DNA of 64,000 bases. It comes from an uncultured Candidatus Saccharibacteria bacterium (GTDB lineage: Bacteria; Patescibacteriota; Minisyncoccia; Phycocordibacterales; Zambryskibacteraceae). Made by a program: the position numbers and the translations under genes. The stretch lies in NCBI GenBank assembly GCA_964342515.1, contig CAYFFP010000001.1, positions 78,204-142,203 of the forward strand, written 5' to 3'. This document shows positions 13,106 to 31,908 of the stretch, piece after piece; the first letter of the stretch is position 1, and each line of letters begins with the position of its first letter. The notes under the pieces were generated by a model, which made no database searches, had not been told where the DNA came from, and saw only the letters and a list, made by a program, of their open reading frames with translations.

Positions 13106-13138
13106 GTTATTTCTAAGTTTTATATACTATATCCACAA

Positions 13139-14701: not shown

Positions 14702-14711
14702 CACGCGTCTT

Positions 14712-14785
14712 GGGCCTATAGTTTAGTAGCAGAACACGGCATTCGCATTGCCGAGACTCGAGTGCGATTCTCGATAGGTCCACCA
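14712..14785 (+). tRNA. tRNA-Ala(CGC) with encoded CCA
   Basis: Acceptor GGGCCTA/TAGGTCC. Anticodon arm CGGCA-TTCGCAT-TGCCG. T-arm TCGAG-TGCGATT-CTCGA. A-CCA is followed immediately by ATG of the next gene. Confidence 0.65.
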
Positions 14786-18071: not shown

Positions 18072-18814
18072 CAAAACTCTCAATTTTTATCGCTCTGAGT
18101 TTTGTTTTAACCACGCCGGCATATGCGGACTCTCTCTTCTCCGACGGGTTCGAGTCGGATACGGAATTTTCCGGCTGGTCGCAGAATGTCCTGACCGAAT
18201 GGGATGTCATAAATAATTCCGCCGGCGCTCATGGCGGTTCAAAGCGCGCGCAAGTAAACGGCACTACTACAGGACAAACCTACGCCATCATTAGGGAACA
18301 ATCTACGTCTGATTATGAAAATATTTCTCTTTCGTTCTGGTACAAAATCAATAATGGCCTCGAATCAGATGATCATGTTCTGGCTGAATGGTCTCTAAAT
18401 GGATCAAGCTGGACTACGGTAGAGGATTTAACTAATGCTTCAACAACCTCCGGCTACACGCAAAGTATTTCGAATCTTTCGTCAGGAGCAAACGACCAAT
18501 CCGGATTCCGCTTCCGGTTCTTTGCAAACTTGGGAGCCTCAAGCGACGTGGTAAGCATTGATGATGTCGAGTTAAGCGGAACCGTGATTGCGGTCGCTAC
18601 GCCGGTGGTTGAAGAATCAAGCGGCCCGGTCGGCAGCTCCCGTCCGCCAACGCCCTCACCCCAAATTGGCGAGATTCTCGGCGCCTCGACCTCCGTTTTT
18701 ATTGAGAGGGAAGCGGCGATAAAAGACGCCGAGGCGGAACTTATCAAAATCATGGAGAATTTTATAATCCTCCTCCAATCCGAAATCGCCTCTTATCCTG
18801 CTTCGCATGTCTAA
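18068..18814 (+). CDS. Secreted hypothetical protein (signal peptide)
   Basis: MTKLSIFIALSFVLTTPAYA is signal-like. Ser/Thr-rich with a Pro-rich C-terminus. Confidence 0.45.
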   Translation: MTKLSIFIALSFVLTTPAYADSLFSDGFESDTEFSGWSQNVLTEWDVINNSAGAHGGSKRAQVNGTTTGQTYAIIREQSTSDYENISLSFWYKINNGLESDDHVLAEWSLNGSSWTTVEDLTNASTTSGYTQSISNLSSGANDQSGFRFRFFANLGASSDVVSIDDVELSGTVIAVATPVVEESSGPVGSSRPPTPSPQIGEILGASTSVFIEREAAIKDAEAELIKIMENFIILLQSEIASYPASHV

Positions 18815-18934
18815 GCTTTCTGTAGGCATGGTCTGAACACAATGCAACATGCTGTGCCATTCTTCTTTACGATAAAACTTCCTAAACCTCAAAAATTATT
18901 TGGGAATAGATAGTCAATAACTTAGCTTTTCCTC

Positions 18935-20035
18935 TTATGGATGCTCTTCGTGGTAGTCGGTTATGTAATATTTATCCCTCTTCTCTTTAACGTCCTTGTA
19001 ATCTGCTAAAAAGACAAGAAGATATTTATTCTGATAATGAATACTGTTATCCTCCATCCATTCAGGTACAGGCCATCCATCATCCTCTCTCTTATATGGA
19101 TCGACGAAATTGTCTCTACTAAGTTTTTCTAAAGATTTAGTATAGAATTTTTTATATACATCCCCGAATTTCTTTCCAGCAACCTCATCACTGGCAAATT
19201 GAGCCCTAAGGTAGCTATAATCAACCATCTCACTATTTAATTCTTTCCAGTCATGTGTCCAGTCATTTTTTGCTCCAGATAAAAGACCCTTATAGGATTC
19301 TGTAGCATACATTGAAAAATTTAGGTAATTTATAGGGATTGATTGAGATACATACATAAGAGGGAAGCTGGTGATAGTTTCCCAAGTTTTATATACAGCC
19401 AAACCTTCTTTTTGATAGAAATGGGGAGTTGTATTTTTATCAAAATCACCAATCTGAACCTTTATCTCTCCATTTACTATTAACACTCTTATCTGTATTC
19501 CACTCCAGATATTATTGTAAAAGTGTCCCTCTTCCTCTTCTTTCTGCCCTATATATTCATATGGAATGTAAATCTCATGTTCTACACTATCATTGAAATC
19601 TACCTCATTGTTTTTCCATAAAATATTGTTCTTTATATTAAATTTTGCTTTTTCCCATATATATCGGACTCCTTTGTGGACACGATCATTTTCATTATCA
19701 AAACCATATTTCTTTTTATAGTTTTCAATTAAAGTCTTAATCCATTCCGATTCGTCTTTAAATTTAAACTTCTCGTTCTCTTTAAGTTTTCTGAATAAGT
19801 TTAAAACAGATGAATGTTTAAGAATCTCTGCTATGTTTATCTTTACTTCTATTGTTATATTTGAAAGTATTTCTTTTTCAGTATTATTTATCCCTTCAAA
19901 AATCCTTTTGAGACTTTGCCCGAATAGCCTTGAGAAGAACCAAGTCAACAAAATAATTGCTACGAAGAAGTTATTTTCATAGAAAAAATATATACTTGCT
20001 CCTCCTATTATGAGAGTAAATATTCCTGACTTCAT
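18935..20035 (-). CDS. Hypothetical membrane-anchored protein
   Basis: 366 aa with N-terminal TM helices. AT-rich; first gene of island 2. Confidence 0.45.
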   Translation of the reverse strand: MKSGIFTLIIGGASIYFFYENNFFVAIILLTWFFSRLFGQSLKRIFEGINNTEKEILSNITIEVKINIAEILKHSSVLNLFRKLKENEKFKFKDESEWIKTLIENYKKKYGFDNENDRVHKGVRYIWEKAKFNIKNNILWKNNEVDFNDSVEHEIYIPYEYIGQKEEEEGHFYNNIWSGIQIRVLIVNGEIKVQIGDFDKNTTPHFYQKEGLAVYKTWETITSFPLMYVSQSIPINYLNFSMYATESYKGLLSGAKNDWTHDWKELNSEMVDYSYLRAQFASDEVAGKKFGDVYKKFYTKSLEKLSRDNFVDPYKREDDGWPVPEWMEDNSIHYQNKYLLVFLADYKDVKEKRDKYYITDYHEEHP

Positions 20036-20036
20036 A

Positions 20037-20312
20037 CTAGATACTTTCGCAGGCTATGCCATCCTTATCTCGATCTAAGCCGTGTGGGTCATAGGATGGT
20101 CCGCCATCGGATTCAAAGAATCTTTGGGCTTCAGCTTGAGAAGAGAAATCTCCACAATCCCTGTCCCCGAACTCTTCATAGCTTCTTTCTGTTGAATAAT
20201 CAGTGTCTTCTTGTAACTGCAACTTGTTTGGTTCTGGATTACCACCGCTCAAAGTCATGACTCCAAGTATTCCTGCTAAAACTACTCCTCCTGCTATAAG
20301 TGTGTTTTTCAT
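20037..20312 (-). CDS. Excalibur Ca-binding domain protein (secreted)
   Basis: Signal/TM N-terminus. DCGDFSSQAEAQRFFE...DRDKDGIACES matches the Excalibur motif and resembles the C-terminus of the 10982-11815 nuclease. Confidence 0.6.
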   Translation of the reverse strand: MKNTLIAGGVVLAGILGVMTLSGGNPEPNKLQLQEDTDYSTERSYEEFGDRDCGDFSSQAEAQRFFESDGGPSYDPHGLDRDKDGIACESI

Positions 20313-20356
20313 TTTAGTAGTAGAACTTTATAAAATTAACAATAATTCTTTGTAAG

Positions 20357-21088
20357 TTATTGGCACCACTTAGCCGTTCTTGTGAGAATAATGGGGAATC
20401 CGCTTACTTGGCGACCATTATCGGCCTTCCATTCTTGAATTGTCACACTGAATGTTCCAGGCTCTGTTATGTCCTGGGCACGGGCAAAAATGTAACTATG
20501 CAATCTACCCCCATCGGTCTGTATTCTCTCATTGAATTGATTAACAGTTACTAGATGGGAGTAAGAAGAAACTAAGATGTAAGGTGAACCACTTTCCCAA
20601 CGGGCAGTGAGCTTACCATCATCGTATTGTGTAGTGCCTGTGGCAGTAAGCCCAACTACGTTAATCTGACCGATAAGGAAATCATATTCATTACTCTGGC
20701 TACCATGCCCTTGTCCTGGAATCATGCAGTAATCAGATAATGGAGCTTGTGCCAAAAAAGTAAGTGGGGTTGGTGGTGGAGGTGGAGGCAGAGGTGGTGG
20801 CACCACTACTGGAATTGGCGTGGTGTTAGTTATTACAGTATCTACCTTCTGGCTCACGGCTCCCAATTGCGTAGCTTGAGTAGCTTGCTGGGCTATGAGT
20901 TCGGCAATCTGTGTCTGTAACTCCGCTATCCTCGCTAGAAGAATCTGAATTGTAAGGTCTTGGATTTGCTGGTTGATAGCTCGGATTTGTTCTTGCTGTT
21001 CAGCAGAAAATGTCTGGGCCCTCACAACAAAGGATGGTGTAATAAATAAACTCAGAACAACCAATGTTGATATTAAACTTTTTTTCAT
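20357..21088 (-). CDS. Secreted protein with coiled-coil, poly-Pro linker and C-terminal beta-rich domain
   Basis: Signal peptide, Gln/Ala-rich coiled coil, PPPLPPPPPPTPL. Confidence 0.45.
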   Translation of the reverse strand: MKKSLISTLVVLSLFITPSFVVRAQTFSAEQQEQIRAINQQIQDLTIQILLARIAELQTQIAELIAQQATQATQLGAVSQKVDTVITNTTPIPVVVPPPLPPPPPPTPLTFLAQAPLSDYCMIPGQGHGSQSNEYDFLIGQINVVGLTATGTTQYDDGKLTARWESGSPYILVSSYSHLVTVNQFNERIQTDGGRLHSYIFARAQDITEPGTFSVTIQEWKADNGRQVSGFPIILTRTAKWCQ

Positions 21089-21351
21089 ATCTATATCTAT
21101 CTTTATTTATAAACAGAAAGCCCACCACGGGCGGTAGCTAAGCTACCCACTGCCAGTTTCCCGACAGGACCGATGAAGGTATTCCCATGATGGGTTTTCC
21201 ATCCTTCATCGGTTTTAACCATGCTTAGCCCTTAAAAGAGCTAGGTTTAGGTTATTAAACTACATAGTCAGAGTAGCACTTTTACCCTAGAAAAATCAAC
21301 TAGGAAGTGGTATAACGTTCACGAAGTTCACTCATTCATATAGAGATAAAA

Positions 21352-22542
21352 ATGACAAAGTATTTCAACCTAGGATTTCCGACTAAGAAAAAGTGGCTCA
21401 AAAACTACTGGCAGAGGAACATCAATACCTTTCTTTACGCCATTGAGAATCCTGAAATTCAGGAAGCGATTAGGAAGTATCGGGAAATCTGGCTGACAAA
21501 TGAGATAGGTAGGACCCCCGAGGAACTAGAGCCTATCCTCAAAAGAATTTTCCTTAAAGAAGCCGAAAGTGGCAGAGATTTGGATAACCTAACTTGGGAT
21601 GGAAATAAGGTGGTGAAAGAGGATGGGGAGTACTACGTAATAGCGAAGAGAGGTAAAGATGGCTATACCAAAGTGCCACTTGGCTCCACTCTCCAAGAGA
21701 GTACGAAATGGCATTTAAGTAATCCGTTCTATATTTTCAATGATGATCAAATTCTGAAGCCAGAGTGGAAACTTAGGCTTACGAAAATGCTCGCTAATCC
21801 CAAAGAGAATAGCTGGCTTTTTGAACCGAGGTTTGCGATCAATGAAGCAATCATAGTTCACCCATCATCTCACATGGGTATTATGACACTTCACGAGCTG
21901 AGTTTTCTAAGACCTCTTGATATGCACGTACTCGGTCGTCTCAACTTAGACTACTTTGTCTTTTGGCCAATGTTTTTCTACTACGCTCTCACTGATGATA
22001 TGGATTACATAATTGAAAATGTCGGCTTCCTGACGTATCCAGTAAAAGTTTTCTTGGTGGAAGATGGAGAACACAAGAACTTAGTTTTTAGATTTTATGG
22101 CGACTGCAATTTCAACGAAATCCAGAAGTTTATTTCCGAGAATAAGGTGAACTTCGAGAAGCTAACAAAGTTACTCGGTAACCCCTCGGTAACGGGGAGT
22201 GGGATGAAAGATTTCTATATGTACAAGACAAGGCAAGTCTCTGGCGACAGTCTCATTGCTTTTTCTGAACTTGGTAAGAGAAATGTTATAAAACTCCCAA
22301 AGAAAAAGCCTGAGCAAATGAGCTACAAGGACTACTTGGCCAAGAATGTGGTCCAAGATCTAGGAGGCCTGATTGGTAGCAAGAAGTTGGTGAAGAAGCA
22401 GAACAAGAAAGAGCTTGCAAGAATCAATGTAGCTTACTCTCAAGTGAAGAAAGAGATTGGCAATCTCACTAAATACGACAAGTGGAAGGCTCTAGAGGAG
22501 GCAAAGAAGCTAGTTGATGAGATAAATAAGCCCAAACTCTAA
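21352..22542 (+). CDS. Hypothetical protein (element cargo)
   Basis: 396 aa, preceded by extended -10 TGGTATAAC at approx 21308-21316. No known motif. Confidence 0.45.
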   Translation: MTKYFNLGFPTKKKWLKNYWQRNINTFLYAIENPEIQEAIRKYREIWLTNEIGRTPEELEPILKRIFLKEAESGRDLDNLTWDGNKVVKEDGEYYVIAKRGKDGYTKVPLGSTLQESTKWHLSNPFYIFNDDQILKPEWKLRLTKMLANPKENSWLFEPRFAINEAIIVHPSSHMGIMTLHELSFLRPLDMHVLGRLNLDYFVFWPMFFYYALTDDMDYIIENVGFLTYPVKVFLVEDGEHKNLVFRFYGDCNFNEIQKFISENKVNFEKLTKLLGNPSVTGSGMKDFYMYKTRQVSGDSLIAFSELGKRNVIKLPKKKPEQMSYKDYLAKNVVQDLGGLIGSKKLVKKQNKKELARINVAYSQVKKEIGNLTKYDKWKALEEAKKLVDEINKPKL

Positions 22543-22639
22543 GTTCTAAAATCAAGGGGAAAGTGATTAACGCTACTTTGCACGGTTGCGTTAATTTTTT
22601 GCGTGGGAAAATCTCATCATTAAAAGTTAAAGATAAAAG

Positions 22640-22909
22640 ATGAAAACAGATAAAGATAGATACCTAAGGACCACCTCGTTTCCCATGACTACCTTTCTCT
22701 TTGCGAAGGGTTTTCAAATTGCGGGGATAAATCCCACGGGGGAGGGGGATCAACAGGAATTCGTGTTTGTGAGCACCCCTCAGTTAGAGGAGTTGGCTGA
22801 CCTCTACAGGTTCGGGCCAAAGAATGATGAACGGTTGCTTGTCTTGGTCCATAAGTATGAGCAGGCAAGGAATGAACTCCTGTCGGCATTAAAAGATAAA
22901 AGATTCTAA
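22640..22909 (+). CDS. Hypothetical small protein
   Basis: 89 aa. Confidence 0.35.
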   Translation: MKTDKDRYLRTTSFPMTTFLFAKGFQIAGINPTGEGDQQEFVFVSTPQLEELADLYRFGPKNDERLLVLVHKYEQARNELLSALKDKRF

Positions 22910-22920
22910 TAGAAATAAAA

Positions 22921-24288
22921 ATGAAAAAGATAGATAGAGAGAGCCGAAAGGCTTCAGTCGTTACAGATGATTTAATAGCAGAGACAATCTACGATCCCGT
23001 CAGTAAGACAACTCAATTTGCTGTGCTGTTTGCACCTAATGAAGTTGGTTTTTCTGAAGAGATACAAGTAAATGGAGAGACTATATACCCACTTGATGCC
23101 AAGAATGACATCGTAAGTAAGGGGGTGGTGCTCCTCCCATCTACAGCTACCGACTATGTAAGCGATACAGAGCTTCTAAACGGTATACAAGGCTTCATTC
23201 ACAAGTATCTGGATATAAGCCCCATGTTCGAGCGTATAGCGAGCTATTATGTGCTTTTTAGCTGGTTATATGACCGTTTCTATGAACTTCCTTATCTCAG
23301 GGCTATAGGGGACTATGGGAGTGGTAAAACAAGGTTTCTACAAGCCATAGGGTCTCTATGCTACAGGCCAATCTTTACTGGCGGAGCAACTACGACAGCA
23401 CCCATATTTCGTATTTTAGATGAGATAAAAGGGACCTTAATTCTGGATGAAGCCGATCTACGTTTCAGTGATATGACCACTGACATCGTGAAGATACTCA
23501 ATATGGGCTATCAGAGAGGTGGTTCTGTCCTAAGAATGCAGGGTAAAGAGAAGTTGGAGATGAAAGCCTTCGACGTTTTCTCTCCAAAGATAGTTGCTAC
23601 CAGAGAGACTTTCAGCGATAAAGCTCTGGAGAGTCGTTTTCTTGTAGAACATATGGGATCAAGCTCACTTCGTAAAGATATTCCAAGACGACTAAGTGAT
23701 GAGTTTTATGACGAAGCCCGTGAACTTCGTAACAAGCTTCTTATGTGGCGATTTAAGAACTATAGAAAAGAACTGCTCTTTGACGATGCTGAGATCGAAG
23801 GTATTCATCCACGACTTCACCAGATAGTTATTCCACTTCTCACCATTATTGAGGATGAGGAAATGAAAATTTCACTCAAGGATTTCGTAAAGGAATACAA
23901 CGGTGAGTTGGCGTCTGATAGGGGTCAGTCTTGGGAAGCTGATGTGACGCTAGCTATTTTAAGACTGGCTCAAGATAGGGGAGAGGACTCCCTTACAGTA
24001 AAGGAAATAAGTGAGGAGACAAATCGAATTATTGATTTTTCTGACGATCATCTTCATGCGAGGAAGGTGGGTTGGATAATGACCAAAAAACTTCACCTTA
24101 AAACTCATCGAACACGCAATGGCTATACCTTATCACTCTCCAAGAACAGAAAGACGATAGAGAGGTGGAAGGAGTGTTTCGGCATTACAGATGAGGATAT
24201 TCAAGGTAATGAGGTGAATGATGTGAATGATGTGCATGTTACTAAGGATAGCGATTCATTAAAAGATGATGACGAAATATTATTCTAA
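22921..24288 (+). CDS. P-loop NTPase, SF3 helicase-like (Walker A GDYGSGKT, Walker B LILDEADL); putative replication protein of integrated element
   Basis: The Walker A/B spacing of about 45 aa and a candidate motif C (KIVATRE) resemble D5/P4-alpha-type SF3 ATPases. C-terminal region possibly DNA-binding. Confidence 0.5.
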   Translation: MKKIDRESRKASVVTDDLIAETIYDPVSKTTQFAVLFAPNEVGFSEEIQVNGETIYPLDAKNDIVSKGVVLLPSTATDYVSDTELLNGIQGFIHKYLDISPMFERIASYYVLFSWLYDRFYELPYLRAIGDYGSGKTRFLQAIGSLCYRPIFTGGATTTAPIFRILDEIKGTLILDEADLRFSDMTTDIVKILNMGYQRGGSVLRMQGKEKLEMKAFDVFSPKIVATRETFSDKALESRFLVEHMGSSSLRKDIPRRLSDEFYDEARELRNKLLMWRFKNYRKELLFDDAEIEGIHPRLHQIVIPLLTIIEDEEMKISLKDFVKEYNGELASDRGQSWEADVTLAILRLAQDRGEDSLTVKEISEETNRIIDFSDDHLHARKVGWIMTKKLHLKTHRTRNGYTLSLSKNRKTIERWKECFGITDEDIQGNEVNDVNDVHVTKDSDSLKDDDEILF

Positions 24289-24935
24289 TGAAAAAGGAAA
24301 TTAAAAAAGCTGAAAGTACCGAAATAGTCAAAAAGTTTACTGACGAAGAAGTTGATCGGTTGCTTAAAAAAGACCTAGCAATTGAAAACGACCCTCGGAA
24401 TTTATTGAAAAAATTCAAAGATGAGGTTCTCCCATCATACTTTTCCGAAGACAAGAATAAGAAGATGAACCAAGAAGAGTTCAATGATAAGGCCAATCAA
24501 GTCATGATTGCTTTTGGCCCCGATACCCATCTCCCGCTGGCTCATGCAGTTAGTACTAAATATCAACCCTTAGCACTGGAATTAACTCGACGACTGAAGA
24601 AGGAACATGATTGCCAATCTACTTCAGAAGTAATGCTGGCTGAGACCATAGCACTCTCCCATACACGAGCACTGGAGCTATCTAGTAAGTTTGCTGTCTT
24701 CAAAGATATTGAATATCTAAGTGCCGAGAAGAATGGATATTACGGGTTGATAGCTAAGGAAATAGACCGTGCTCATCGAAGGATGATGCACTCGCTGTCA
24801 CTGCTCAAACAGATGAAGCAACCGCTGGTAGAGGTAAACATCAAGTCCAAAAACACTTTCTTGGCTCAAAATCAGCAATTCAATGCGGAAAAACCACCAG
24901 AAACCACCAAAAATGAAATCAATGACTCCAAATAA
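24288..24935 (+). CDS. Hypothetical protein
   Basis: 215 aa; ATGA-type overlap with the upstream gene. Confidence 0.4.
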   Translation: MKKEIKKAESTEIVKKFTDEEVDRLLKKDLAIENDPRNLLKKFKDEVLPSYFSEDKNKKMNQEEFNDKANQVMIAFGPDTHLPLAHAVSTKYQPLALELTRRLKKEHDCQSTSEVMLAETIALSHTRALELSSKFAVFKDIEYLSAEKNGYYGLIAKEIDRAHRRMMHSLSLLKQMKQPLVEVNIKSKNTFLAQNQQFNAEKPPETTKNEINDSK

Positions 24936-25242
24936 TTTAGGAAAGAAATTTATAGTCGAGGAGTGCCAGAGGATAACAGTCAAAGACTATCTTCAAAAGT
25001 TTCGAATCAAACTCAAGGAGGAGGTTTTGAGTTCGGTGATGGAGATCGCCCGACAAGAAGTAAGGCTTGATACTACAAACACGGGATTCGGGGGTATTCG
25101 ATACTGGTTTGATTGCCCGATTTGCTCTAGGCGAGTCGGTACTCTCTTTGCTCATCCTCTTAATGGGAAAGTCGGATGTCGGATCTGTTTAGGTTTGGAA
25201 TATAGGGGTAGGCGGTACAAGGGAATGATCGAGGGAAGTTAA
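24883..25242 (+). CDS. Small zinc-ribbon protein
   Basis: FDCPICSRRVGTLFAHPLNGKVGCRIC. Confidence 0.35.
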   Translation: MRKNHQKPPKMKSMTPNNLGKKFIVEECQRITVKDYLQKFRIKLKEEVLSSVMEIARQEVRLDTTNTGFGGIRYWFDCPICSRRVGTLFAHPLNGKVGCRICLGLEYRGRRYKGMIEGS

Positions 25243-25247
25243 ATAAT

Positions 25248-25421
25248 ATGGCCGAAGCTTACCTTAAAAGGAATAGTCTCACTCTTGAGTATCAGTTTAT
25301 GGATAAACCAGAAAAACTGGAGAAAGCATTTGATGTTCTTTTTGAGGAAGTAGCTAAGGAGTTGGAGAAACAAAAGATTGTTGAGCTATCCACACCTGCT
25401 TTGGCATCTATGCACAATTAG
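25248..25421 (+). CDS. Small hypothetical protein (57 aa)
   Basis: Hand-found: MAEAYLKRNSLTLEYQFMDKPEKLEKAFDVLFEEVAKELEKQKIVELSTPALASMHN. Confidence 0.25.
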   Translation: MAEAYLKRNSLTLEYQFMDKPEKLEKAFDVLFEEVAKELEKQKIVELSTPALASMHN

Positions 25422-25436
25422 GTATATAATATAATT

Positions 25437-25625
25437 ATGGAATTTCTTACAAACGATGAAGTTGCAGAAGCTCTAAGAGTAAACCCAAGAACAGTAGATC
25501 GCTGGCTGAATAAGGGGTTGATGGAAGGTTACAAACTTGGAAAAGGGAAGACTGCTCTCTGGCGTATACCTAAGGGTGAAGTTAAAAGATTTTTGGAGAA
25601 GCATAGAAATAGAAAAAAGAAATGA
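25437..25625 (+). CDS. Excisionase/MerR-type HTH DNA-binding protein (putative recombination directionality factor)
   Basis: LTNDEVAEALRVNPRTVDRWLNKGLMEGYKLGKG...WRIPKGEV. Lies immediately upstream of and overlapping the serine recombinase (ATGA). TATATAAT at 25422-25432. Confidence 0.55.
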   Translation: MEFLTNDEVAEALRVNPRTVDRWLNKGLMEGYKLGKGKTALWRIPKGEVKRFLEKHRNRKKK

Positions 25626-27259
25626 ATCAGGACTTATCAAAAATAGAGAAACTGACAGCAACCTATTACAGAGTCTCAACTTCTAATCAGGAAGAAGCAC
25701 AAACAATCCAGACTCAGATTTCTGCTGTCAAAGAATTTGCTAGTAAGAATCATATAAAAATTATCCAAGAGTATATGGATGACGGCTGGAGTGGAGATAC
25801 ACTGATAAGACCCGCTCTAGATCAGTTAAGAGTAGATGCTAGAAAGAAAATGTGGGAAGCAGTTTTAGTCTATGATCCAGATAGACTGGCTAGACGTTAC
25901 TCTTATCAGGAGCTGGTAATGGATGAACTTAAGGAGGCTGGTATTGAGGTAATTTTTGTAACCACTCCTGCTCCTAAAAATAGCGAAGACAAGATCTTAC
26001 ATGGGGTAAAAGGCCTATTTGCTGAGTACGAAAGGGCGAAAATATCAGAAAGATTCAGATTAGGTAAACTGAGAAAGGCAAAGGAAGGACACATCATGAC
26101 ATCGGAAGCTCTTTACGGGTATAGATATATTCCAAGAATAGATAAAGAACAGGGTCGTTATGAAATAAATGAAGAAGAAGCAAGAGTTGTGAAAATGATT
26201 TTCAAATGGGTGGGTGAGGAGGGTCTAACGCTTCGTGCTGTAGTGAAAAGATTGATGGATGTGAAGATTAGACCAAGAAAAAGTAAGAAGGGTGTATGGG
26301 CTACCAGCACGTTAACAACGATGCTTAGACATAAAGGCTATATCGGAGAAGCTCATTGGGGGAAATCATACGCTGTTGTGCCAGAGAATCCATATAAGAT
26401 TGAAAAGTATCGTAAGCAGAAAAAATCTAGTCGCAGGGATCGTCCAGAGGAGGAGTGGTATATCATTCCAATACCTAGAATTATAGATAGAGAATTATTC
26501 GAACGTGTTCGAAAGCAGTTACAAGTGAACTTCGCTTTGTGCAAGCGTAATAAGAGGAATGATTATCTTTTAGCAAGTAAAATATGGTGTTCTTGTGGTT
26601 CTAGAAGGTGTGGTTGTGGACCACAAAAGGGTAAGCATCTCTATTATCGATGTAATGACAGAATTAAAAGCTTTCCACTTCCTGCTAAATGTAAAGAGGG
26701 AGCAGTAAATGCCAGAATCGGTGATCAGTTAGTATGGGAAAGGGTGGCGAATTTAATGAGTTCACCAGAATTATTATTGAAGCAGGCAGAGAGGTGGTTA
26801 AATAATCGTCAAAGTAAAAAAGTATCATCATTGACTGACATCAAGGACTTAGAAAAGGAATCAAAAAAGCTCAAGGATCAAGAAGAGCGATACAATAAAG
26901 CTTATGGGGTAGGTCTACTAAGTATGGAACAGTTGAGAGATTACACCATACCCATCAGAGAAAGGTTGGGGGTTGTCGATTCACAAATAATAAAGACTAA
27001 AGAAGAGAACAATCAAATAGTTTCAATGGGTATGCCGAGCAAGAAAGAAGTGGAGATCTTTGCAAAGGTAGCATCCAGAAAATTACGAAACTTGAATTTC
27101 GAACTGAAACGGGAGATAGTATTGAGCACTGTAGAGAAGGTTGTTGGAAACCAAGAAAAGCTACAAGTTTATGGATATATACCAATAAATCATGTCTTAT
27201 TCAGCTCTGAGTATCGGCATTGTCGGGCTGCCGAACGTGGGGAAGTCCACGCTCTTTAA
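25622..27259 (+). CDS. Large serine recombinase (integrase) with resolvase catalytic domain, recombinase domain, zinc ribbon and coiled coil
   Basis: [10 protein letters not shown] supplies the catalytic Ser. DRLARR. Cys cluster [11 protein letters not shown]...YYRCN. A coiled-coil follows. The 3' end reads 68 nt into ychF in another frame. Confidence 0.85.
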
Positions 27260-28007
27260 CGCGCTGACGAAAAAGGGGGTGCCGGCGGAGAATTATCCTT
27301 TCTGCACCATCGACCCATCGGTGGGTATCGTGCCAGTGCCTGACGAAAGACTCGATAAATTGGCGGAGCTTTCTAAATCTAAAAAAGTCATCCCGGCTGT
27401 TGTTGAGTTTGTAGATATAGCCGGACTGGTGAAAGGGGCTAGCGAGGGCGAGGGGCTCGGAAACAAGTTCCTCTCTCACATTCGCGAAGTGGATGCCATT
27501 ATCGAGGTGGTGAGAATCTTTGAAGATAAAGATATCATCCACGTGCATGACAAAGTTGACCCGCTCTTCGATATCGAAATTATTAATCTTGAATTAGAGA
27601 AAGCGGGGATACAGAAGCCGACTCTCTATGTGCTCAATATGTCGGAAGCGGCGGAGAATTTGGAATTTAATGTTCCCGGACCTTATGTAAAAATTGATCC
27701 GGTATTTGGTACTGGTTTAGATAAATTGATAGTAGAAGCATACAAACTCCTCGATCTGATCACTTTCTTTACCACCGGAGAGAAGGAGAGTAGGGCTTGG
27801 ACGACTCGCCGCGGTTCAACTGCGCCAGAAGCGGGCAAATCCATTCATACTGATTTCCAAGAAAAATTCATCCGCGCAGAAGTGATTCACTACGACAAAC
27901 TCCTTGAAGCCGGCTCTTACGCCAACGCCCGCGCCAAGGGGTGGGTAAGAACGGAGGGAAAGGAATACATCGTCCAAGACGGCGACGTGATTGAATTTTT
28001 GATTTAA
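27192..28007 (+). CDS. ychF: Ribosome-binding ATPase YchF (Obg-like), shortened form
   Basis: [18 protein letters not shown] is the P-loop. C-terminal TGS-like block [13 protein letters not shown]...[14 protein letters not shown]...GDVIEFL follows. Confidence 0.8.
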
Positions 28008-28048: not shown

Positions 28049-28324
28049 ATGAAAACGATGCTTAATGTAAAAACCGATAGCAAACTTAAGAAAGACGCTC
28101 AAAGAACAGCCAAAGAAGCGGGTATACCTATAAGTTTAGTTGTAAATAGTGCTCTGAAGAAGTTCGTGGCGCAGCGCTCAATTATTATAGAAGCGCCGCT
28201 TATTCCTAATGCCAAAACGGCTAAAATTCTCGACAGAGCTTTGAAGGACATTAAAGCTGGTAAAAATCTTTCTCCTGTATTTAAGACTGCGGCAGAAATG
28301 GATCGCTATCTTAATTCTTTATGA
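28049..28324 (+). CDS. RelB/DinJ-family antitoxin
   Basis: KTDSKLKKDAQRTAKEAGIPISLVVNSALKKF is the ribbon-helix-helix DinJ pattern. Overlaps the toxin gene (ATGA). Confidence 0.6.
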   Translation: MKTMLNVKTDSKLKKDAQRTAKEAGIPISLVVNSALKKFVAQRSIIIEAPLIPNAKTAKILDRALKDIKAGKNLSPVFKTAAEMDRYLNSL

Positions 28325-28581
28325 ACCCCGAACTTCATCGTAGTTTCAACAAAGATTATAAAAAACTTCCAGAAAAATTAAAAAGACAATTTAAAATCCG
28401 AAGAAACCTATTTTTAGGAAACCCATTTAACCGTATTCTCAATAACCACGAGCTTCATGGCAGTTATGAAGATTGTAGGAGCATCAACATTACCGGCGAC
28501 TATCGCGCCGTCTATTTTATGAAAAAAGATGCGGCCATTTTTATCCGCATAGGCACTCACAGCGAATTGTTTGGAAAGTGA
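28321..28581 (+). CDS. YafQ/RelE-family mRNA interferase toxin
   Basis: HELHGSYEDCRSINITGDYRAVYF...IFIRIGTHSELF matches the YafQ C-terminal signature (RtGtHsdLF). Confidence 0.65.
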   Translation: MNPELHRSFNKDYKKLPEKLKRQFKIRRNLFLGNPFNRILNNHELHGSYEDCRSINITGDYRAVYFMKKDAAIFIRIGTHSELFGK

Positions 28582-28595: not shown

Positions 28596-29174
28596 ATGCA
28601 AAACACAGTCACAAAGTGGTCGGTAATTTTAGGTATCGTTATAGTGCTTAACTTGTTTTTCAACTACACGATTTCTCTAGTTTATGAGAGACCGGATTAC
28701 GAAGATTACTGCCCGCAGTCGCAAGTAGTGGTCGTGCCAGATACGCAGGAGGAGTGCGTGGCGGAAGGCGGACAATGGACTGACAACGCCTATTACAGCA
28801 AGCCCATTCGTCCGGAATTCCCGGAGCCAGTTGGCTACTGCGACCTTCAATACACTTGCAGACAGGAATACGAATCAGCCCACGATACTTATCAAAGAAA
28901 TGTTTTCGTCGTCTTGGTAGTGCTTGGTGCGCTCTCGGTCCTGGTTGGCTCCGCCAGCTGGCGGATTTTCAGGGGTAATGTGGTGATATCCAACGGTCTC
29001 TCGCTGGCCGGATTATTCTCCTTCATCATCGCCAGCATCCGCTACTGGGGCTCGGCAGATAATCTGATCAGAGTTATAATCCTCGCCATCGCATTGGGAA
29101 TCCTCTTCTGGATTGCGATGAAAAAATTCAATGACCAAAATGACCGAGTACGACCCGAAGGAAATAGAGAGTAA
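28596..29174 (+). CDS. Hypothetical membrane protein with Cys-rich extracytoplasmic region
   Basis: 192 aa, N- and C-terminal TM helices. Confidence 0.4.
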   Translation: MQNTVTKWSVILGIVIVLNLFFNYTISLVYERPDYEDYCPQSQVVVVPDTQEECVAEGGQWTDNAYYSKPIRPEFPEPVGYCDLQYTCRQEYESAHDTYQRNVFVVLVVLGALSVLVGSASWRIFRGNVVISNGLSLAGLFSFIIASIRYWGSADNLIRVIILAIALGILFWIAMKKFNDQNDRVRPEGNRE

Positions 29175-31908
29175 ATGGCAGAAAAATTGGGAAGAATCTG
29201 GTATTTACCGCGCGGAGGATAAGTCGAAGAAGCCAAAGTATTATACCCTCATAGAATTTCCGTATCCGTCGGGAGATGGGCTACATGTCGGACATCCGCG
29301 TCCTTACATTGGACTGGATGTTGTATCACGCAAGCGCAGGATGCAGGGTTACAACGTGCTTTATCCCATTGGCTGGGACGCTTTCGGCTTGCCCACAGAA
29401 AATTACGCGATAAAGACCGGCAAAGATCCGCGGCAGGTAACGAAAGAAAATACAAATACCTTCCGCCGGCAAATCCAATCTCTCGGCATCTCTTTCGATT
29501 GGTCAAGAGAGATTAATACTACCGACCCAAAGTATTACAAATGGACGCAATGGATTTTCTTAAAACTACTTGAGCACGGCTTGGCTTACAAAGCCAAGAT
29601 TCCGGTCAACTGGTGCCCGAAAGACAAAATTGTTTTGGCCAATGAAGAAGTGGTGAATGGCTGCTGCGAACGTTGCGGTACGCCGGTAGAACAGAAGGAG
29701 AGGGAGCAATGGATGCTCGCTATTACCAAATACGCGGACAGATTACTCTCCGGTCTCGATGAGGTTGATTATCCGGAGCGGGTGAAAGTTCAGCAGAGGA
29801 ATTGGATAGGAAAGTCTGAAGGGGCTCTCATTAAGTTCGACGATATAGAAGTTTTCACTACTCGGCCGGACACAATTTTCGGCGCGACTTTCTTGGTGAA
29901 AGCGGGCAAAGAAGATAAATTTACCGGAGAGTACGTAACTAATCCAGTGACCAAAGAAAAAATTCCTGTCTGGGAAGCGGAATATGTGTATTCCGACTAT
30001 GGCACAGGCGCGATCATGGCCGTGCCCGCTCATGATGAGCGTGATTATGAGTTTGCAAAGAAGCACGACATCCCGATACGACAAGTTATTATCCCTAAGT
30101 ACACTGATCCAAGTAACCCACATCGAGAAGGCAAAGAAACAGTTTTTAGAAACGCTGTAATTGTAATTCTTCGAAATCCGAAAACAGCTGAAATTCTTAC
30201 TTTAAAATGGAAGAAGTTACCTTGGACTACATTTGTAATGGGGGGCATTGAAAAAGAAGAAACTCCTGAACAAGCCGCTGTTAGAGAGATATTAGAAGAG
30301 ACGGGATACAAGAATGTAAGAATCATAAAACTTCTAGGTGGCCAGATACACAATGAATTTTTCGCCGAGCATAAAAATGAGAATCGAATTGTGCATACTC
30401 AGGGAATATTTGCTGAGCTTGTAGATGAGGAGCGAGAGAAAATTTCTCAGGAAGAAGGGGATAAATATGAAATTGAATGGATTAAAGAAATAGAAGTTGA
30501 TCCTAGAGATCTTAAGCATACTGAAGCAGAAGAATTATTGAGAAGAATAAATGTGGATGAATCGTATATCGGAGAGGGTTTGCTTATAAATTCTAATGGA
30601 TTTGACGGACTTACATCAGAAGAGGCCAGAGAGAAGATTACCGAAAAATTCGGCAAAAAGGTTATTAAGTACAAATTGCGTGATTGGGTCTTCTCCCGCC
30701 AGCGCTATTGGGGAGAGCCGATACCGGTGGTGCACTGCGAGAAATGTGGAGTTGTTGCCGTTCCCGAATCAGAACTTCCGGTAAAGTTGCCGGAAGTGAA
30801 GAATTATCAGCCGACCGATACTGGTGAATCGCCTTTAGCAAATATTAAAGAGTTTGTTGACACCGAGTGTCAACAGTGCGGGGGAAAGGCCAAGAGGGAA
30901 ACGGACGTGATGCCCAATTGGGCGGGTTCCTCGTGGTATTTCTTACGCTACACCGATCCGCATAATGATAAGGAGTTTGCATCAATGGAAAAATTGAAAT
31001 ACTGGATGGGGGATGCCAGCTTGCCCCGTACCGAGCGAAGCTCTGGTACTGGGGTGGATTGGTACAACGGCGGGATGGAGCATACTGTGCTTCACCTTCT
31101 CTACTCGCGCTTCTGGAATAAATTCCTTTTCGACATCGGTGCGGTACCGGTAGATGAGCCGTACAAGAAACGTACTTCCCATGGATTGATTCTCGCCGAA
31201 GGCGGGGAGAAAATGAGTAAGTCCAAGGGCAACGTCATCAATCCCGACTCGATCGTTCTACGCTTCGGCGCTGACACTCTGCGTTTGTATGAGATGTTTA
31301 TGGGACCCTTCGAGCAGGCAATCGCGTGGAATGACAGCTCGCTTGTGGGACCGAGAAGATTTCTTGAAAAAATTTGGAGACTACGGGAGAAACTTCCGAC
31401 CTCACCCGGCTTTCAGCCACCCTCTCCTAGCGCAAGGAGAGGGGCAGGGGGTGAGGTGAATTTTCATCAAGCTATCAAAAAAGTTTCCGACGATATCGAG
31501 ACGCTTGGATTTAACACGGCCGTCTCGACTCTAATGATCTTTGCTAATGATCTGGATAAGAAAGAAAAAATTTCAAAAGAAGAATACGAAACTTTGCTCA
31601 AGCTTCTCGCGCCGTTCGCGCCACACATGACAGAAGAGTTATGGCATGAACTTGGACATAAAGATTCGATACATGAAGAAGAGTGGCCGACTTACGATGA
31701 AACAAAACTTGTGCCAGAGACTGTTACGATTGTGGTTCAGGTCAACGGCAAGGTAAGGGGCAAATTTGCGGCCAGAGCAAATTTGAAAGAAAAAGAAATC
31801 CTAGAGAAAGCGAAGGAGTTGCCGGAAATACAAAAGTGGCTTGGGGACAAAAAAGTGGAGAAGTCAATTTATGTGCCGAAAAAATTGATAAATTTCGTCG
31901 TAAAATAG
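29131..31908 (+). CDS. leuS: Leucyl-tRNA synthetase with inserted NUDIX hydrolase domain
   Basis: HIGH region PYPSGDGLHVGH. Editing motif TTRPDT. AVPAHDERDYEFA. KMSKS present. C-terminus VQVNGKVRGKF. A perfect Nudix box GGIEKEETPEQAAVREILEETGY lies at approx 30235-30303, inside an AT-rich segment (approx 30120-30560). Confidence 0.9.
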   Translation: MTKMTEYDPKEIESKWQKNWEESGIYRAEDKSKKPKYYTLIEFPYPSGDGLHVGHPRPYIGLDVVSRKRRMQGYNVLYPIGWDAFGLPTENYAIKTGKDPRQVTKENTNTFRRQIQSLGISFDWSREINTTDPKYYKWTQWIFLKLLEHGLAYKAKIPVNWCPKDKIVLANEEVVNGCCERCGTPVEQKEREQWMLAITKYADRLLSGLDEVDYPERVKVQQRNWIGKSEGALIKFDDIEVFTTRPDTIFGATFLVKAGKEDKFTGEYVTNPVTKEKIPVWEAEYVYSDYGTGAIMAVPAHDERDYEFAKKHDIPIRQVIIPKYTDPSNPHREGKETVFRNAVIVILRNPKTAEILTLKWKKLPWTTFVMGGIEKEETPEQAAVREILEETGYKNVRIIKLLGGQIHNEFFAEHKNENRIVHTQGIFAELVDEEREKISQEEGDKYEIEWIKEIEVDPRDLKHTEAEELLRRINVDESYIGEGLLINSNGFDGLTSEEAREKITEKFGKKVIKYKLRDWVFSRQRYWGEPIPVVHCEKCGVVAVPESELPVKLPEVKNYQPTDTGESPLANIKEFVDTECQQCGGKAKRETDVMPNWAGSSWYFLRYTDPHNDKEFASMEKLKYWMGDASLPRTERSSGTGVDWYNGGMEHTVLHLLYSRFWNKFLFDIGAVPVDEPYKKRTSHGLILAEGGEKMSKSKGNVINPDSIVLRFGADTLRLYEMFMGPFEQAIAWNDSSLVGPRRFLEKIWRLREKLPTSPGFQPPSPSARRGAGGEVNFHQAIKKVSDDIETLGFNTAVSTLMIFANDLDKKEKISKEEYETLLKLLAPFAPHMTEELWHELGHKDSIHEEEWPTYDETKLVPETVTIVVQVNGKVRGKFAARANLKEKEILEKAKELPEIQKWLGDKKVEKSIYVPKKLINFVVK

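What the first reader, a model, noticed from the sequence alone, without database searches (positions are those of the whole stretch)
18820..27260. Integrated element ending in excisionase-like HTH + large serine recombinase whose ORF reads into ychF
The AT-rich block from about 18.9 to 27.2 kb ends with an HTH excisionase-like gene and a 545-aa large serine recombinase. The recombinase's last 68 nt overlap the start of ychF in another frame, and composition switches to GC-rich exactly there. This places the att site at the 5' end or promoter of an essential-type gene (ychF). The cargo includes a P-loop SF3-like ATPase, zinc-ribbon proteins and several unknown proteins (21352-25421) that could include novel anti-defence or defence functions. 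Three secreted proteins (Excalibur, Pro-rich) are carried on the opposite strand.
Basis: partly seen in the sequence, partly recalled or inferred. Interest (0 to 1): 0.55.

Follow-up and report, generated by a model that had tools for sequence, protein, structure and literature searches.

The report
Mobile element inserted inside ychF's start
An 8.4-kb mobile DNA element of an uncultured Patescibacteria (CPR) bacterium has inserted inside the first codons of the conserved gene ychF, using a serine integrase whose recombination site lies within its own gene, so insertion rewrites the end of the integrase and the start of ychF together; the same design recurs in dozens of metagenome contigs.

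Summary
Window 18827-27217 is an 8,391-bp element with 39% GC, against 48% in the flanks. It was integrated by its 545-aa large serine recombinase (LSR).

The crossover is a GG dinucleotide (18825-26 and 27216-17). This GG is the first two bases of the first Gly codon of the YchF P-loop, so attB lies inside ychF, not in its promoter.

attP lies inside the LSR's own 3' end. Integration therefore has two effects:
- It replaces the LSR's native 27-aa tail, which still lies intact at attL (18824-18913), with 12 out-of-frame ychF codons.
- It replaces ychF's first 6 codons, displaced to 18807-18826, with 8 element-encoded codons written in a second frame of the LSR gene.

The same junction occurs in 57 of 80 metagenome loci holding LSR relatives. 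Seven independent attL sites confirm it. The closest genome has an uninterrupted ychF.

The conserved core of the family is the LSR, an Xis-like HTH_17 gene, a small protein and the orphan LOOT RNA (21133-21253). This copy's cargo includes an SF3/AAA+ replicative helicase and secreted proteins. No known defence system was found.

It is a new variant of a known kind. Excision was not shown.

The parts
18801..18850 (.). attL: host B arm (to 18824), crossover GG (18825-26), element P' arm (18827-18850)
   Evidence: Comparison of attL and attR in 7 elements. In L130 only the GG is shared between the two junctions.
18807..18826 (+). Displaced original 5' end of ychF (ATG TCT AAG CTT TCT GTA GG = MSKLSVG). 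The ATG overlaps the stop of the upstream 248-aa ORF (TAA at 18812-14).
   Evidence: Matches the start of the uninterrupted YchF of L003, [17 protein letters not shown].
18824..18913 (+). Displaced native C-terminal tail of the LSR (RHGLNTMQHAVPFFFTIKLPKPQKLFGNR*). It would be joined to LSR codon 531 in the excised form.
   Evidence: Homologous to the tails of class B LSRs (motif IPFxFxIxLP). The ORF is intact here and at all 7 attL sites.
18935..20035 (-). 366-aa cargo protein with hydrophobic N-terminal stretches; no known domain
20037..20312 (-). 91-aa Excalibur calcium-binding-domain protein with a signal/TM-like N-terminus
   Evidence: PF05901 at 3.3e-08. Homologues occur in elements L093, L122 and L155.
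20357..21088 (-). 243-aa Pro-rich protein with a signal-like N-terminus
21120..21253 (-). LOOT RNA (Rfam RF03000, 21133-21253), followed by a terminator-like hairpin and T-run (21120-21132)
   Evidence: 70.7 bits against a gathering score of 46.4, full length. Terminator-like site. Present in 21 of 28 class A loci with at least 6 kb upstream of the LSR, and in 0 of 80 ychF control loci.
21352..22542 (+). 396-aa protein of unknown function; rare family
   Evidence: No Pfam, PHROG, NCBIfam or PADLOC hit. Only 12 relatives, counting itself.
22640..22909 (+). 89-aa DUF5659 protein
   Evidence: PF18903 at 2.2e-05. DUF5659 proteins recur in sister elements.
22921..24288 (+). 455-aa replicative-helicase-like ATPase (SF3/AAA+ type), with Walker A GSGKT and Walker B LILDEAD
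   Evidence: AlphaFold2 mean pLDDT 80.4. Foldseek hits to MCM, PriRep1 (7pds), NrS-1 CTR (6k9e), AAV Rep40 and the SaPI5 primase-helicase (7ola). Homologues P0163 and P0198 are fused to Prim-Pol.
24288..24935 (+). 215-aa protein of unknown function, linked to the helicase in related contigs
24883..25242 (+). 119-aa CxxC...CxxC protein (putative zinc ribbon)
   Evidence: Homologues at 39-55% identity in L097, L122, L131 and L169. No Pfam family above its cut-off.
25248..25421 (+). 57-aa small protein of the integration module
   Evidence: Its motif (LEKAFDVLFEEV) resembles, by eye, that of a 72-aa cluster (LNKAFDRLFEEV) found in 13 sister loci. The similarity was not scored.
25401..25430 (+). 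Best sigma-70-like promoter match (TTGGCA-18-TATAAT), just upstream of HTH_17-LSR(-ychF)
   Evidence: 11 of 12 matches. The total count of such sites in the region is not above shuffles, so this is only suggestive.
25437..25625 (+). 62-aa HTH_17 / Xis-like protein; candidate recombination directionality factor or regulator
   Evidence: PF12728 at 2.5e-12, TIGR01764 at 39 bits, phrog_66. A homologue was found in 46 class A loci, in every listed case just upstream of the LSR start.
25622..27259 (+). Large serine recombinase, integrated form (545 aa). Residues 534-545 ([12 protein letters not shown]) are out-of-frame ychF.
27192..27241 (.). attR: element P arm (27192-27215, starting with the ATGTC that supplies the new ychF start), crossover GG (27216-17), host B' arm (27218-27241, coding IVGLPNVG)
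27192..28007 (+). ychF (271 aa) with a chimeric start: MSYSALSI from the element, then G9 onwards from the host

Best explanation
Window 18827-27217 is an 8,391-bp integrative element of a Patescibacteria genome that probably replicates on its own. Its large serine recombinase inserted it into ychF.

SHOWN by sequence comparison:
- The exchange point is a GG dinucleotide, the first two bases of the Gly codon that opens the YchF P-loop segment [11 protein letters not shown].
- The element's site (attP, about 50 bp, an imperfect dyad ATGTCG at -24 and CGACAT at +24 around the GG) lies inside the 3' end of the recombinase gene.
- Integration therefore swaps two reading frames at once. The recombinase loses its native 27-aa tail, which stays as an intact ORF at attL, and gains 12 residues of out-of-frame ychF. 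ychF loses its own start and 6 codons, left at attL fused to the end of the upstream gene, and gains an ATG plus 8 codons that are written in a second frame of recombinase codons [10 protein letters not shown].
- ychF stays intact, but it is now separated from its former upstream gene and lies directly behind the HTH_17-recombinase genes.

INFERRED from established serine-integrase mechanism: recombinase dimers bind attP and attB, cleave with a 2-bp stagger at GG/CC, rotate subunits and religate.

INFERRED from gene content:
- The Xis-like HTH_17 protein is the directionality factor or regulator.
- After excision the circle is replicated by the SF3/AAA+ helicase.
- ychF is transcribed from the element.
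- The LOOT RNA is an element-borne small RNA, possibly controlling replication or the divergent operons.

Whether the tail swap changes recombinase activity is not known.
For: Recombinase identity:
- Pfam Resolvase, Recombinase and Zn ribbon matches.
- phrog_95 integrase at 4.6e-89.
- The nucleophile motif YRVSTSNQ aligns with TP901-1.
- The model of homologue P0010 matches full-length serine integrases with E of 1e-13 or better: entries 9dxd/9dxh, phiC31 integrase (9rah) and Bxb1 (9iu2).

Junctions:
- The LSR tail is the +1-shifted reading frame of the ychF P-loop codons, here and in 84 of the 120 closest proteins.
- In 57 of 80 metagenome loci ychF begins inside the LSR ORF.
- Seven independent attL sites lie 5.4-9.8 kb upstream of the LSR. 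Each has an old ychF start (M..(I/V)G) fused to an intact native-tail ORF.
- In L130 the attL and attR junctions share only the GG.
- 48 distinct attR sites and 17 unrecombined attP sites give the consensus and the dyad symmetry.

Native tail:
- Thirty class B LSRs conserve I-P-F at 90% or more.
- The codons vary at synonymous positions, and the motif lies beyond the 50-bp site.
- It is predicted as a beta strand with pLDDT about 80.

Empty site: L003 and L004 have an uninterrupted ychF and no LSR, and L003 shares synteny with the window.

Composition: 0.394 against 0.48.

Replication module. Sister elements carry Prim-Pol+PriCT+AAA_25 and CHC2 zinc-finger genes.

Contig breaks: 19 of 85 loci end less than 300 nt after the LSR match. 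Most of these are contig ends.
Against: - No excised circle, no attP junction and no empty site from the same species were found. Mobility of this particular copy is therefore inferred.
- No relative was found in IMG/VR.
- About 20 related LSRs with an unrecombined attP sit in long contigs, ICE-like contexts or chromosomes with no ychF nearby. That is not explained by a simple integrate/excise cycle.
- The host-side left half-site is poorly conserved between hosts.
- Seven class A loci did not fit the -24 ATG spacing and were not analysed.
- The role of HTH_17, the promoter and the function of LOOT are untested.
- TM-scores of the helicase fold matches are low (0.33-0.40), although the hits are consistent.
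Confidence: 0.85

Rival explanations
1. The att site lies outside both genes, in the promoter or 5' UTR of ychF. On this reading the 68-nt LSR/ychF overlap is an ordinary gene overlap, and the whole LSR ORF and the ychF start are native to their own sides.
For: This is the simplest reading of a single sequence. The GC switch falls at about 27.19-27.22 kb.
Against: - The old ychF start and the native LSR tail both lie at attL, here and in 6 other elements.
- The LSR tails are frame-shifted P-loop codons of variable length, from 3 to more than 100 aa depending on host codon choice.
- L003's ychF start matches the attL fragment, not the current start.
Confidence: 0.03
2. The element is a phage satellite of the PICI/SaPI type, packaged by a helper phage, rather than a plasmid-like integrative replicon.
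For: It has a size of 8.4 kb, an int + xis-like + replication-helicase layout and no conjugation genes. The SaPI5 primase-helicase is among the fold matches.
Against: PHROGs found no terminase small subunit, capsid-morphogenesis or packaging gene. No relative was found in IMG/VR. Cargo varies between sister elements and no shared structural genes were seen.
Confidence: 0.15
3. This copy is a fixed island that no longer moves. The recombinase with its foreign tail is inactive, and the element persists because it now supplies the ychF start.
For: - No excised form or same-species empty site was found.
- L005 keeps only a decayed LSR 3' remnant upstream of ychF, which shows that such elements can decay in place while the element-derived ychF start is retained.
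- The native tail motif is lost from the integrated protein.
Against: - All element ORFs are intact. The catalytic motif is intact.
- The displaced tail ORF at attL is intact and keeps its motif in 7 of 7 elements. This argues that the excised form is expressed often enough to be under selection.
- 19 of 85 loci end less than 300 nt after the LSR match, mostly at contig ends, which fits populations with mixed occupancy.
Confidence: 0.2
4. The C-terminal swap is a neutral by-product of where attP happens to lie. The tail has no role in control, and directionality rests only on the HTH_17 factor and the coiled-coil motif, as in other serine integrases.
For: The replacing tails are arbitrary in length and sequence. 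Known serine integrases need no such tail (established knowledge). The linker before the tail motif is predicted disordered.
Against: The native tail motif is conserved at protein level with synonymous variation and lies outside the DNA site. So it has some function in the unintegrated form. In Mx8, a tyrosine-integrase phage, the analogous swap modifies integrase specificity (PMC6070905).
Confidence: 0.5

Closest known systems
Large serine integrases of phages and integrative elements (phiC31, Bxb1, A118, TP901-1)
   Same: Same domain set (catalytic domain, recombinase domain, zinc ribbon with a long helical insert). Simple att sites of about 40-50 bp, a 2-bp non-palindromic crossover and no flanking direct repeats. 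The integrase gene lies at the element end.
   Different: Here attP lies inside the integrase ORF, so the protein differs between the free and integrated states. The target is the 5' coding end of ychF, and the element supplies a replacement start. No described serine integrase with this layout was found in the searchable literature.
Myxophage Mx8 IntP/attP
   Same: attP lies within the int coding sequence, and integration creates a recombinant gene with a new 3' end. The integrase stays active but with modified specificity (PMC6070905; PMC4383910).
   Different: Mx8 Int is a tyrosine recombinase that targets tRNA genes. Here the enzyme is a serine recombinase, and the same stretch of DNA also encodes the target gene's new N-terminus.
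SSV-type 'suicidal' integrases of archaeal viruses and plasmids
   Same: The recombination site is inside the integrase ORF (PMC7253208).
   Different: SSV integrases are tyrosine recombinases whose gene is split into two inactive parts. Here only the last 27 codons are exchanged, and all recognised domains remain in one ORF.
Integration-dependent immunity of mycobacteriophages (BPs, Brujita)
   Same: attP lies inside a coding sequence, so the free and integrated forms express proteins with different C-termini. The C-terminal tag controls protein stability (PMC3694055).
   Different: There attP lies in the repressor gene and the integrase is a tyrosine recombinase. No degradation tag has been shown here.
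LSR-encoding pipolins integrated at ychF in Actinomycetota
   Same: ychF was reported as an integration site for elements that carry large serine recombinases (PMC11551731).
   Different: That report rests on gene context only, and no att mapping appears in the text read. The hallmark piPolB is absent here. Whether the recombinases are related was not tested.
Pneumococcal prophage group PPH005 upstream of ychF
   Same: A (defective) prophage sits immediately upstream of ychF with its int gene adjacent, and it is reported to act as a switch for ychF expression (PMC8637289).
   Different: That system uses a tyrosine integrase, an intergenic attB and a different phylum.
SaPI/PICI satellites and integrative plasmid-like replicons
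   Same: A small element with int, an xis-like gene and a primase/helicase-type replication module.
   Different: No packaging genes were found. The element carries the LOOT RNA.

Membership tests
Large serine recombinase (serine integrase) | N-terminal resolvase-type catalytic domain with the serine nucleophile motif | tested here: met
   PF00239 at 2.9e-31. YRVSTSNQ aligns with the TP901-1 catalytic domain.
Large serine recombinase (serine integrase) | Recombinase domain plus a zinc-ribbon domain carrying a coiled-coil insert | tested here: met
   PF07508 at 4.3e-19. PF13408 scores 22.6 bits, just under its 25.3 cut-off, but is on record for many homologues. Long helices span residues 365-471 in the model of homologue P0010, and that model matches full-length serine integrases: entries 9dxd/9dxh, phiC31 integrase (9rah) and Bxb1 (9iu2).
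Large serine recombinase (serine integrase) | Short att sites with imperfect dyad symmetry around a 2-bp non-palindromic crossover, and no target duplication | tested here: met
   No direct repeats at the ends. GG core from attL/attR comparison. Dyad ATGTCG/CGACAT at +/-19-24.
Large serine recombinase (serine integrase) | Unidirectional attP x attB recombination, reversed by a recombination directionality factor | not testable with these tools
   The candidate factor is HTH_17 at 25437-25625. An Xis-type RDF is known for phiRv1 (PMC3694055).
Integrated mobile element (genomic island) | The site is uninterrupted in related genomes, and the displaced target fragment lies at the far end | tested here: met
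   L003 and L004 have an intact ychF with no LSR upstream. The old ychF start lies at 18807-18826.
Integrated mobile element (genomic island) | Detectable excised form or polymorphic occupancy in the same species | tested here: inconclusive
   No circular contig was found, and the reconstructed proteins are not in the collection. Only occupied contigs of this species were found. Frequent contig ends near the junction are indirect evidence.
attP-within-integrase systems (Mx8, SSV) | The integrase ORF spans attP, so integration alters or splits it | tested here: met
   The reconstructed free form is 560 aa and the integrated form 545 aa. Class B homologues carry the native tail.
attP-within-integrase systems (Mx8, SSV) | The integrase is a tyrosine recombinase | tested here: not met
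   This is a serine recombinase. It works like these systems in layout only and is not a member.
Pipolin | Primer-independent family B DNA polymerase (piPolB) | tested here: not met
   No polymerase B domain in any element ORF.
Prophage | Capsid, tail, terminase and lysis genes | tested here: not met
   PHROGs matched only the integrase, the HTH gene and the Excalibur protein (to two families of unknown function). The element is only 8.4 kb.
PICI/SaPI phage satellite | Packaging or capsid-redirection genes (terS, cpm, ppi) and helper-phage dependence | tested here: inconclusive
   None was recognised. Four ORFs have no assignable function, and helper dependence cannot be tested.
LOOT RNA (Rfam RF03000) | Match to the covariance model above the gathering score over its full length | tested here: met
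   70.7 bits against 46.4, model positions 1-121.
Known anti-phage defence systems | Match to a PADLOC model | tested here: not met
   Only a weak AriA match (E 0.011) and the HTH gene matching mad1.

The most novel reading that the evidence does not exclude
The exchange of the recombinase's C-terminal tail on integration is a built-in switch. The free-form 560-aa enzyme, with the conserved IPFxFxIxLP strand, and the integrated-form enzyme, with an arbitrary host-derived tail, would differ in stability, directionality or RDF dependence. That would make this the first serine-integrase counterpart of Mx8 IntP/IntX or of integration-dependent immunity. At the same time the element would take over transcription and translation initiation of the conserved ATPase YchF, tying the host to the element. 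The orphan LOOT RNA would be the regulatory RNA of this widespread family of Patescibacteria replicons.
Probability: 0.3. Interest if true: 0.75.

Novelty: new variant of a known kind. Interest (0 to 1): 0.62.

Why it matters
Patescibacteria (CPR) make up a large share of bacterial diversity. From my own knowledge, they have few characterised mobile elements and almost no genetic tools.

This work defines a large family of elements. The 120 closest LSR relatives are 58-71% identical, and 57 of 80 related metagenome loci show the same junction. The family has a precisely mapped, about 50-bp attP and a natural landing site in a conserved gene. That site spans the P-loop codons of ychF, in hosts whose YchF is 44-95% identical to the window's. 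The information could be used directly to build integration vectors for these organisms.

Mechanistically, one stretch of DNA serves three roles: recombinase C-terminus, recombination half-site and N-terminus of the target gene. This extends the 'att site inside the integrase gene' principle from tyrosine to serine recombinases.

The work also places the orphan LOOT RNA in a genomic context, as a core component of these elements. Its function can now be tested.

Tried and rejected
- **Direct or inverted repeats at the element ends:** none beyond chance. This is expected for a serine recombinase.
- **Same-species empty site or excised form:**
  - The exact YchF protein is not on record.
  - Contigs carrying the 248-aa upstream protein or the downstream antitoxin are all occupied.
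  - The reconstructed 560-aa LSR and 269-aa YchF are not in the protein collection.
- **Circular contigs:** no terminal overlap in 32 full-length contigs.
- **Viral collections:** only distant LSRs (24-26% identity) and no attP pattern in IMG/VR.
- **Defence or anti-defence cargo:** PADLOC was negative.
- **The 396-aa protein:** no family, no similarity to Prim-Pol fusions, and only 12 relatives counting itself.
- **PDB sequence search with the helicase:** nothing. Its relatives appeared only by fold.
- **Close helicase relatives P0122 and P0123, checked as possible free copies of the element:** they sit in short linear contigs. In L173 the adjacent recombinase is an unrelated LSR.
- **An argument I rejected:** I first argued that the base after GG is never A in unrecombined attP. 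Two class B sites have A there. The crossover was instead fixed by pairwise attL/attR comparison, where L130 shares only the GG.
- **Literature:** searches found no description of this LSR family, of CPR serine-integrase elements, or of the context of LOOT.

Full report
**1. The observation**

The ORF map shows the 545-aa ORF at 25622-27259, a 62-aa ORF at 25437-25625 that overlaps its start, and a 271-aa ORF at 27192-28007. The 545-aa ORF and the 271-aa ORF overlap by 68 nt.
- Pfam assigns Resolvase (2.9e-31), Recombinase (4.3e-19) and Zn_ribbon_recom (22.6 bits, just under its cut-off) to the 545-aa protein, and HTH_17 to the 62-aa protein.
- PHROGs calls them integrase (4.6e-89) and excisionase-like. 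NCBIfam gives TIGR01764 'excise' above its cut-off.
- The 271-aa protein is YchF, with MMR_HSR1 and YchF-GTPase_C domains.
- GC is 0.394 between the junctions and 0.486 / 0.478 in the flanks.
- No tRNA lies in 16-30 kb.

The description is correct.

**2. Where the element ends**

There are no terminal direct repeats, as expected for a serine recombinase. The key came from homologues.

A search with the LSR listed 120 relatives at 58-100% identity, mostly from Patescibacteria MAGs. Their C-terminal ends fall into two classes:
- **Class A (84 proteins)** end like the window's protein, for example ...[23 protein letters not shown]. This is the +1-shifted reading frame of the YchF P-loop codons [15 protein letters not shown].
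- **Class B (28 by pattern, 30 by eye)** end ...R(H/Y)GxNTxRH...IPFxFxIxLPPP.... This tail is conserved as protein, with I-P-F in at least 90% of sequences.

In the window, the class B tail is found at the other end of the element. From 18824 the + strand reads RHGLNTMQHAVPFFFTIKLPKPQKLFGNR*. Immediately before it lies ATG TCT AAG CTT TCT GTA GG. That is MSKLSVG, the start of the uninterrupted YchF of the closest genome L003 ([17 protein letters not shown]).

So attL is an old ychF start joined to the native LSR tail, and attR is the LSR body joined to the rest of ychF.

**3. Independent replication**

A metagenome scan with the LSR returned 80 loci.
- In 57 of them ychF begins inside the LSR ORF, in the same register. 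The host YchF proteins are 44-95% identical to the window's.
- In six of them, besides the window, the upstream flank held an attL of the same build, 5.4-9.8 kb before the LSR start: L097, L101, L115, L130, L134 and L145.
- All seven displaced tail ORFs are intact and keep the motif. The motif codons vary at synonymous positions.
- Comparing attL with attR element by element, the identical stretch always contains one GG. In L130 the GG is all that is shared.

In the window the GG is at 18825-26 and 27216-17. The element is 18827-27217, 8,391 bp. GG is non-palindromic, which serine integrases need to fix orientation (established knowledge).

**4. The sites**

From 48 distinct attR sites, 17 unrecombined attP sites and 7 attL sites:
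- **P arm:** ATGTC at -24 ... ATC.
- **P' arm:** CATGG...GAACACAAC.CGACAT, ending at +24.
- P and P' are an imperfect inverted repeat. Positions -24 to -20 are symmetric in 80-100% of sites. The total is about 50 bp, the usual attP size.
- **B' arm:** NAT.GT.GG..T.CC.AA.GT.GG.AA, the P-loop codons. The same pattern appears in empty ychF genes of many phyla.
- **B arm:** the variable first codons of ychF.

The ATG of the P arm becomes the new ychF start. It sits in LSR codons N-H-V, so this 24-nt stretch is at once LSR coding sequence, recombination half-site and YchF N-terminus.

The Arg codon in the P' arm is CGA in 11 of the 17 class B sites. This suggests constraint at the DNA level as well. 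Seven class A loci did not fit the -24 spacing and were not analysed further.

**5. Consequences for the two proteins**

- The free-form LSR is 560 aa and the integrated form is 545 aa. They differ after residue 533.
- Across hosts the replacing tail is 3 to more than 100 residues long, because its stop depends on synonymous codon choice in ychF. The foreign tail is therefore not itself selected.
- The native tail motif lies beyond the 50-bp site and is conserved as protein. In an AlphaFold2 model of class B protein P0010 it forms a strand (residues 552-560, pLDDT about 80) after a low-confidence linker. It follows the C-terminal hairpin at 507-524. Contacts could not be inspected.
- The old ychF ATG (18807) overlapped the stop codon of the upstream 248-aa gene (TAA at 18812-14). 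In L003 ychF likewise abuts the preceding gene.
- After integration ychF lies 8.4 kb from that gene and directly behind HTH_17-LSR. The best promoter-like match of the region (11 of 12) is at 25401-25430, which is suggestive only.

**6. What kind of element**

*The 455-aa protein.*
- It has 2,481 relatives at E up to 1e-5, none of the 120 listed with a Pfam domain of its own. Two are fused to Prim-Pol with PriCT or NrS-1 HBD.
- Its model (mean pLDDT 80.4) matches MCM, PriRep1, the NrS-1 helicase region, AAV Rep40, SV40 LTag, AsfvPrimPol and the SaPI5 primase-helicase. TM-scores are low (0.33-0.40), but the hits are consistent.
- I read it as the replication helicase.

*Core and cargo.*
- Clustering the ORFs upstream of the LSR in 32 class A loci shows only one widely shared protein, HTH_17. 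By tblastn a homologue was found in 46 class A loci.
- A small protein is shared by 13 loci. The window's 57-aa ORF shows a similar motif by eye.
- DUF5659 occurs in 12 loci.
- Alternative replication modules appear: Prim-Pol+PriCT+AAA_25 in 9 loci and a CHC2 zinc finger in 6.
- By eye, the 567-aa cluster (7 loci, DPPY motif) looks like a DNA methyltransferase, and the 671-aa cluster (5 loci, SPTGSGKT motif) like a restriction-enzyme helicase subunit. They were not scanned against Pfam.

*Not a phage, conjugative element or defence island by content.* No phage structural or packaging genes, no conjugation genes and no PADLOC system were found in the window's element.

The best description is a small integrative replicon with an exchangeable cargo. 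A phage-satellite lifestyle is not excluded.

**7. LOOT RNA**

- Rfam finds a full-length LOOT RNA (RF03000) at 21133-21253 on the minus strand, between the divergent gene blocks. A terminator-like hairpin and T-run follow it.
- The same RNA is in 7 of 11 sister loci scanned with Rfam.
- A covariance model built from these hits gave 27 hits in 27 of 88 LSR or helicase loci, plus two in the window (1.02 Mb in all). It gave none in 80 ychF control loci (1.23 Mb).
- Among loci with at least 6 kb upstream of the LSR, 21 of 28 class A and 2 of 15 class B carry it. It is usually on the opposite strand, 1.6-5.6 kb before the LSR. A GC hairpin with a T-run follows it in most of them.
- LOOT is thus a core part of the family.
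- The literature I could read says only that it is a bacterial RNA with about 43 base pairs in six helices (PMC7657543). Its function is unknown to me.

**8. Evidence on mobility, and gaps**

*Indirect support:*
- The tail ORFs at attL are intact.
- 19 of 85 loci end less than 300 nt after the LSR match. Most of these are contig ends.
- The closest genome has an empty site.

*Against, or missing:*
- No circular contig, no attP or attB junction and no same-species empty site were found.
- L005 shows that an element can decay in place, leaving only a roughly 330-nt LSR remnant that still supplies the ychF start.

*Unexplained:* class B LSRs with an intact attP sit in long non-ychF contexts.
- L087 is part of a 224-kb contig.
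- L088 and L089 carry a tyrosine integrase, ArdC and a TraG-like gene.
- In L163 the LSR lies between TatD and a helicase, with ArdC further on.
- Others are in Bradyrhizobium chromosomes.

**9. Comparison with what is known**

The enzyme is a member of the large serine recombinases; every feature I could test is met. The layout 'attP inside the integrase gene' is known for tyrosine recombinases:
- Mx8 (PMC6070905; PMC4383910).
- SSV-type integrases (PMC7253208).
- As attP within a repressor gene, in integration-dependent immunity (PMC3694055).

I found no serine-recombinase example in the searchable library. The large LSR survey of isolate genomes does not mention ychF (PMC10083194).

ychF as an LSR target has been noted from gene context for pipolins of Actinomycetota (PMC11551731). 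A tyrosine-integrase prophage sits upstream of pneumococcal ychF and is reported to act as a switch for its expression (PMC8637289).

So the target and the enzyme class are known. The new parts are the reciprocal ORF swap with dual coding, the spread in Patescibacteria and the LOOT association.

**10. Verdict**

The finding is real and its interpretation is essentially right. I rate it a new variant of a known kind, with interest 0.62. The structural reading has confidence about 0.85. Any regulatory meaning of the tail swap is open (about 0.3).

Noticed in passing
window 297-418 (-): A second full-length LOOT RNA (76.2 bits) lies near the window start. Rightward small ORFs and two tRNA genes (2466-2612) follow it, and no LSR was seen in the ORFs listed up to 8.5 kb. 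It may belong to another mobile element or a remnant.
   Followed up: partly
window 29131-31908 (+): The leucyl-tRNA synthetase (925 aa) carries a NUDIX domain (PF00293, residues 339-470) next to a partial match to the editing domain. The L003 orthologue is 724 aa and shorter in this region. The L090 orthologue (943 aa) has the NUDIX domain.
   Followed up: partly
window 28049-28581 (+): A RelB-like antitoxin (weak match, below the Pfam cut-off) and a YafQ/ParE toxin pair lie directly after ychF, in a low-GC patch (0.36-0.38). The pair is absent after ychF in L003 and L004.
   Followed up: partly
L005 9737-10065: In a Parcubacteria MAG, ychF is preceded only by a decayed remnant of the LSR 3' end (residues about 440-545), which still supplies the ATG at -24. 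This is a scar of a lost element whose P arm has become the host's ychF start.
   Followed up: partly
L087, L088, L089, L163; proteins P0075, P0077, P0104: LSR relatives with the native tail and an intact internal attP sit in a 224-kb contig, in ICE-like contexts (tyrosine integrase, ArdC, TraG-like) and in Bradyrhizobium chromosomes, away from ychF. Why an unrecombined attP persists there is unexplained.
   Followed up: partly
L173 1-5669: A helicase 90% identical to the window's, together with a 215-aa gene in the same position, is joined to an unrelated large serine recombinase (22% identity over a 174-residue local alignment). This shows exchange of integration modules between elements.
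   Followed up: partly
window about 8068-14800: A low-GC stretch (0.34-0.44) holds a 1637-aa DUF4011/AAA_11/AAA_12 helicase, a DUF2779 protein, an SNase-Excalibur protein and a tyrosine recombinase (about 13424-14323, minus strand) next to tRNA genes at 12582 and 14631-14782. It may be a separate tRNA-linked island.
   Followed up: no
window 27192-28007; L003, L004: YchF here is only 271-272 aa, against about 320-370 aa in most other loci of the genome scan, so an internal segment seems to be missing.
   Followed up: no
L092-L171 (contig ends): 19 of 85 related loci end within 300 nt after the LSR match, mostly at contig ends. Contigs L097 and L145 start about 100 nt before attL. This suggests that assemblies break at this junction because occupancy varies within populations.
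   Followed up: partly
L094, L109, L115, L137, L141, L142, L149: Several sister elements carry, by eye, a DNA methyltransferase-like protein (567 aa, DPPY motif) and a restriction-enzyme-like helicase subunit (671 aa). Defence cargo may therefore exist in the family, although not in the window's copy. These proteins were not scanned against Pfam.
   Followed up: no
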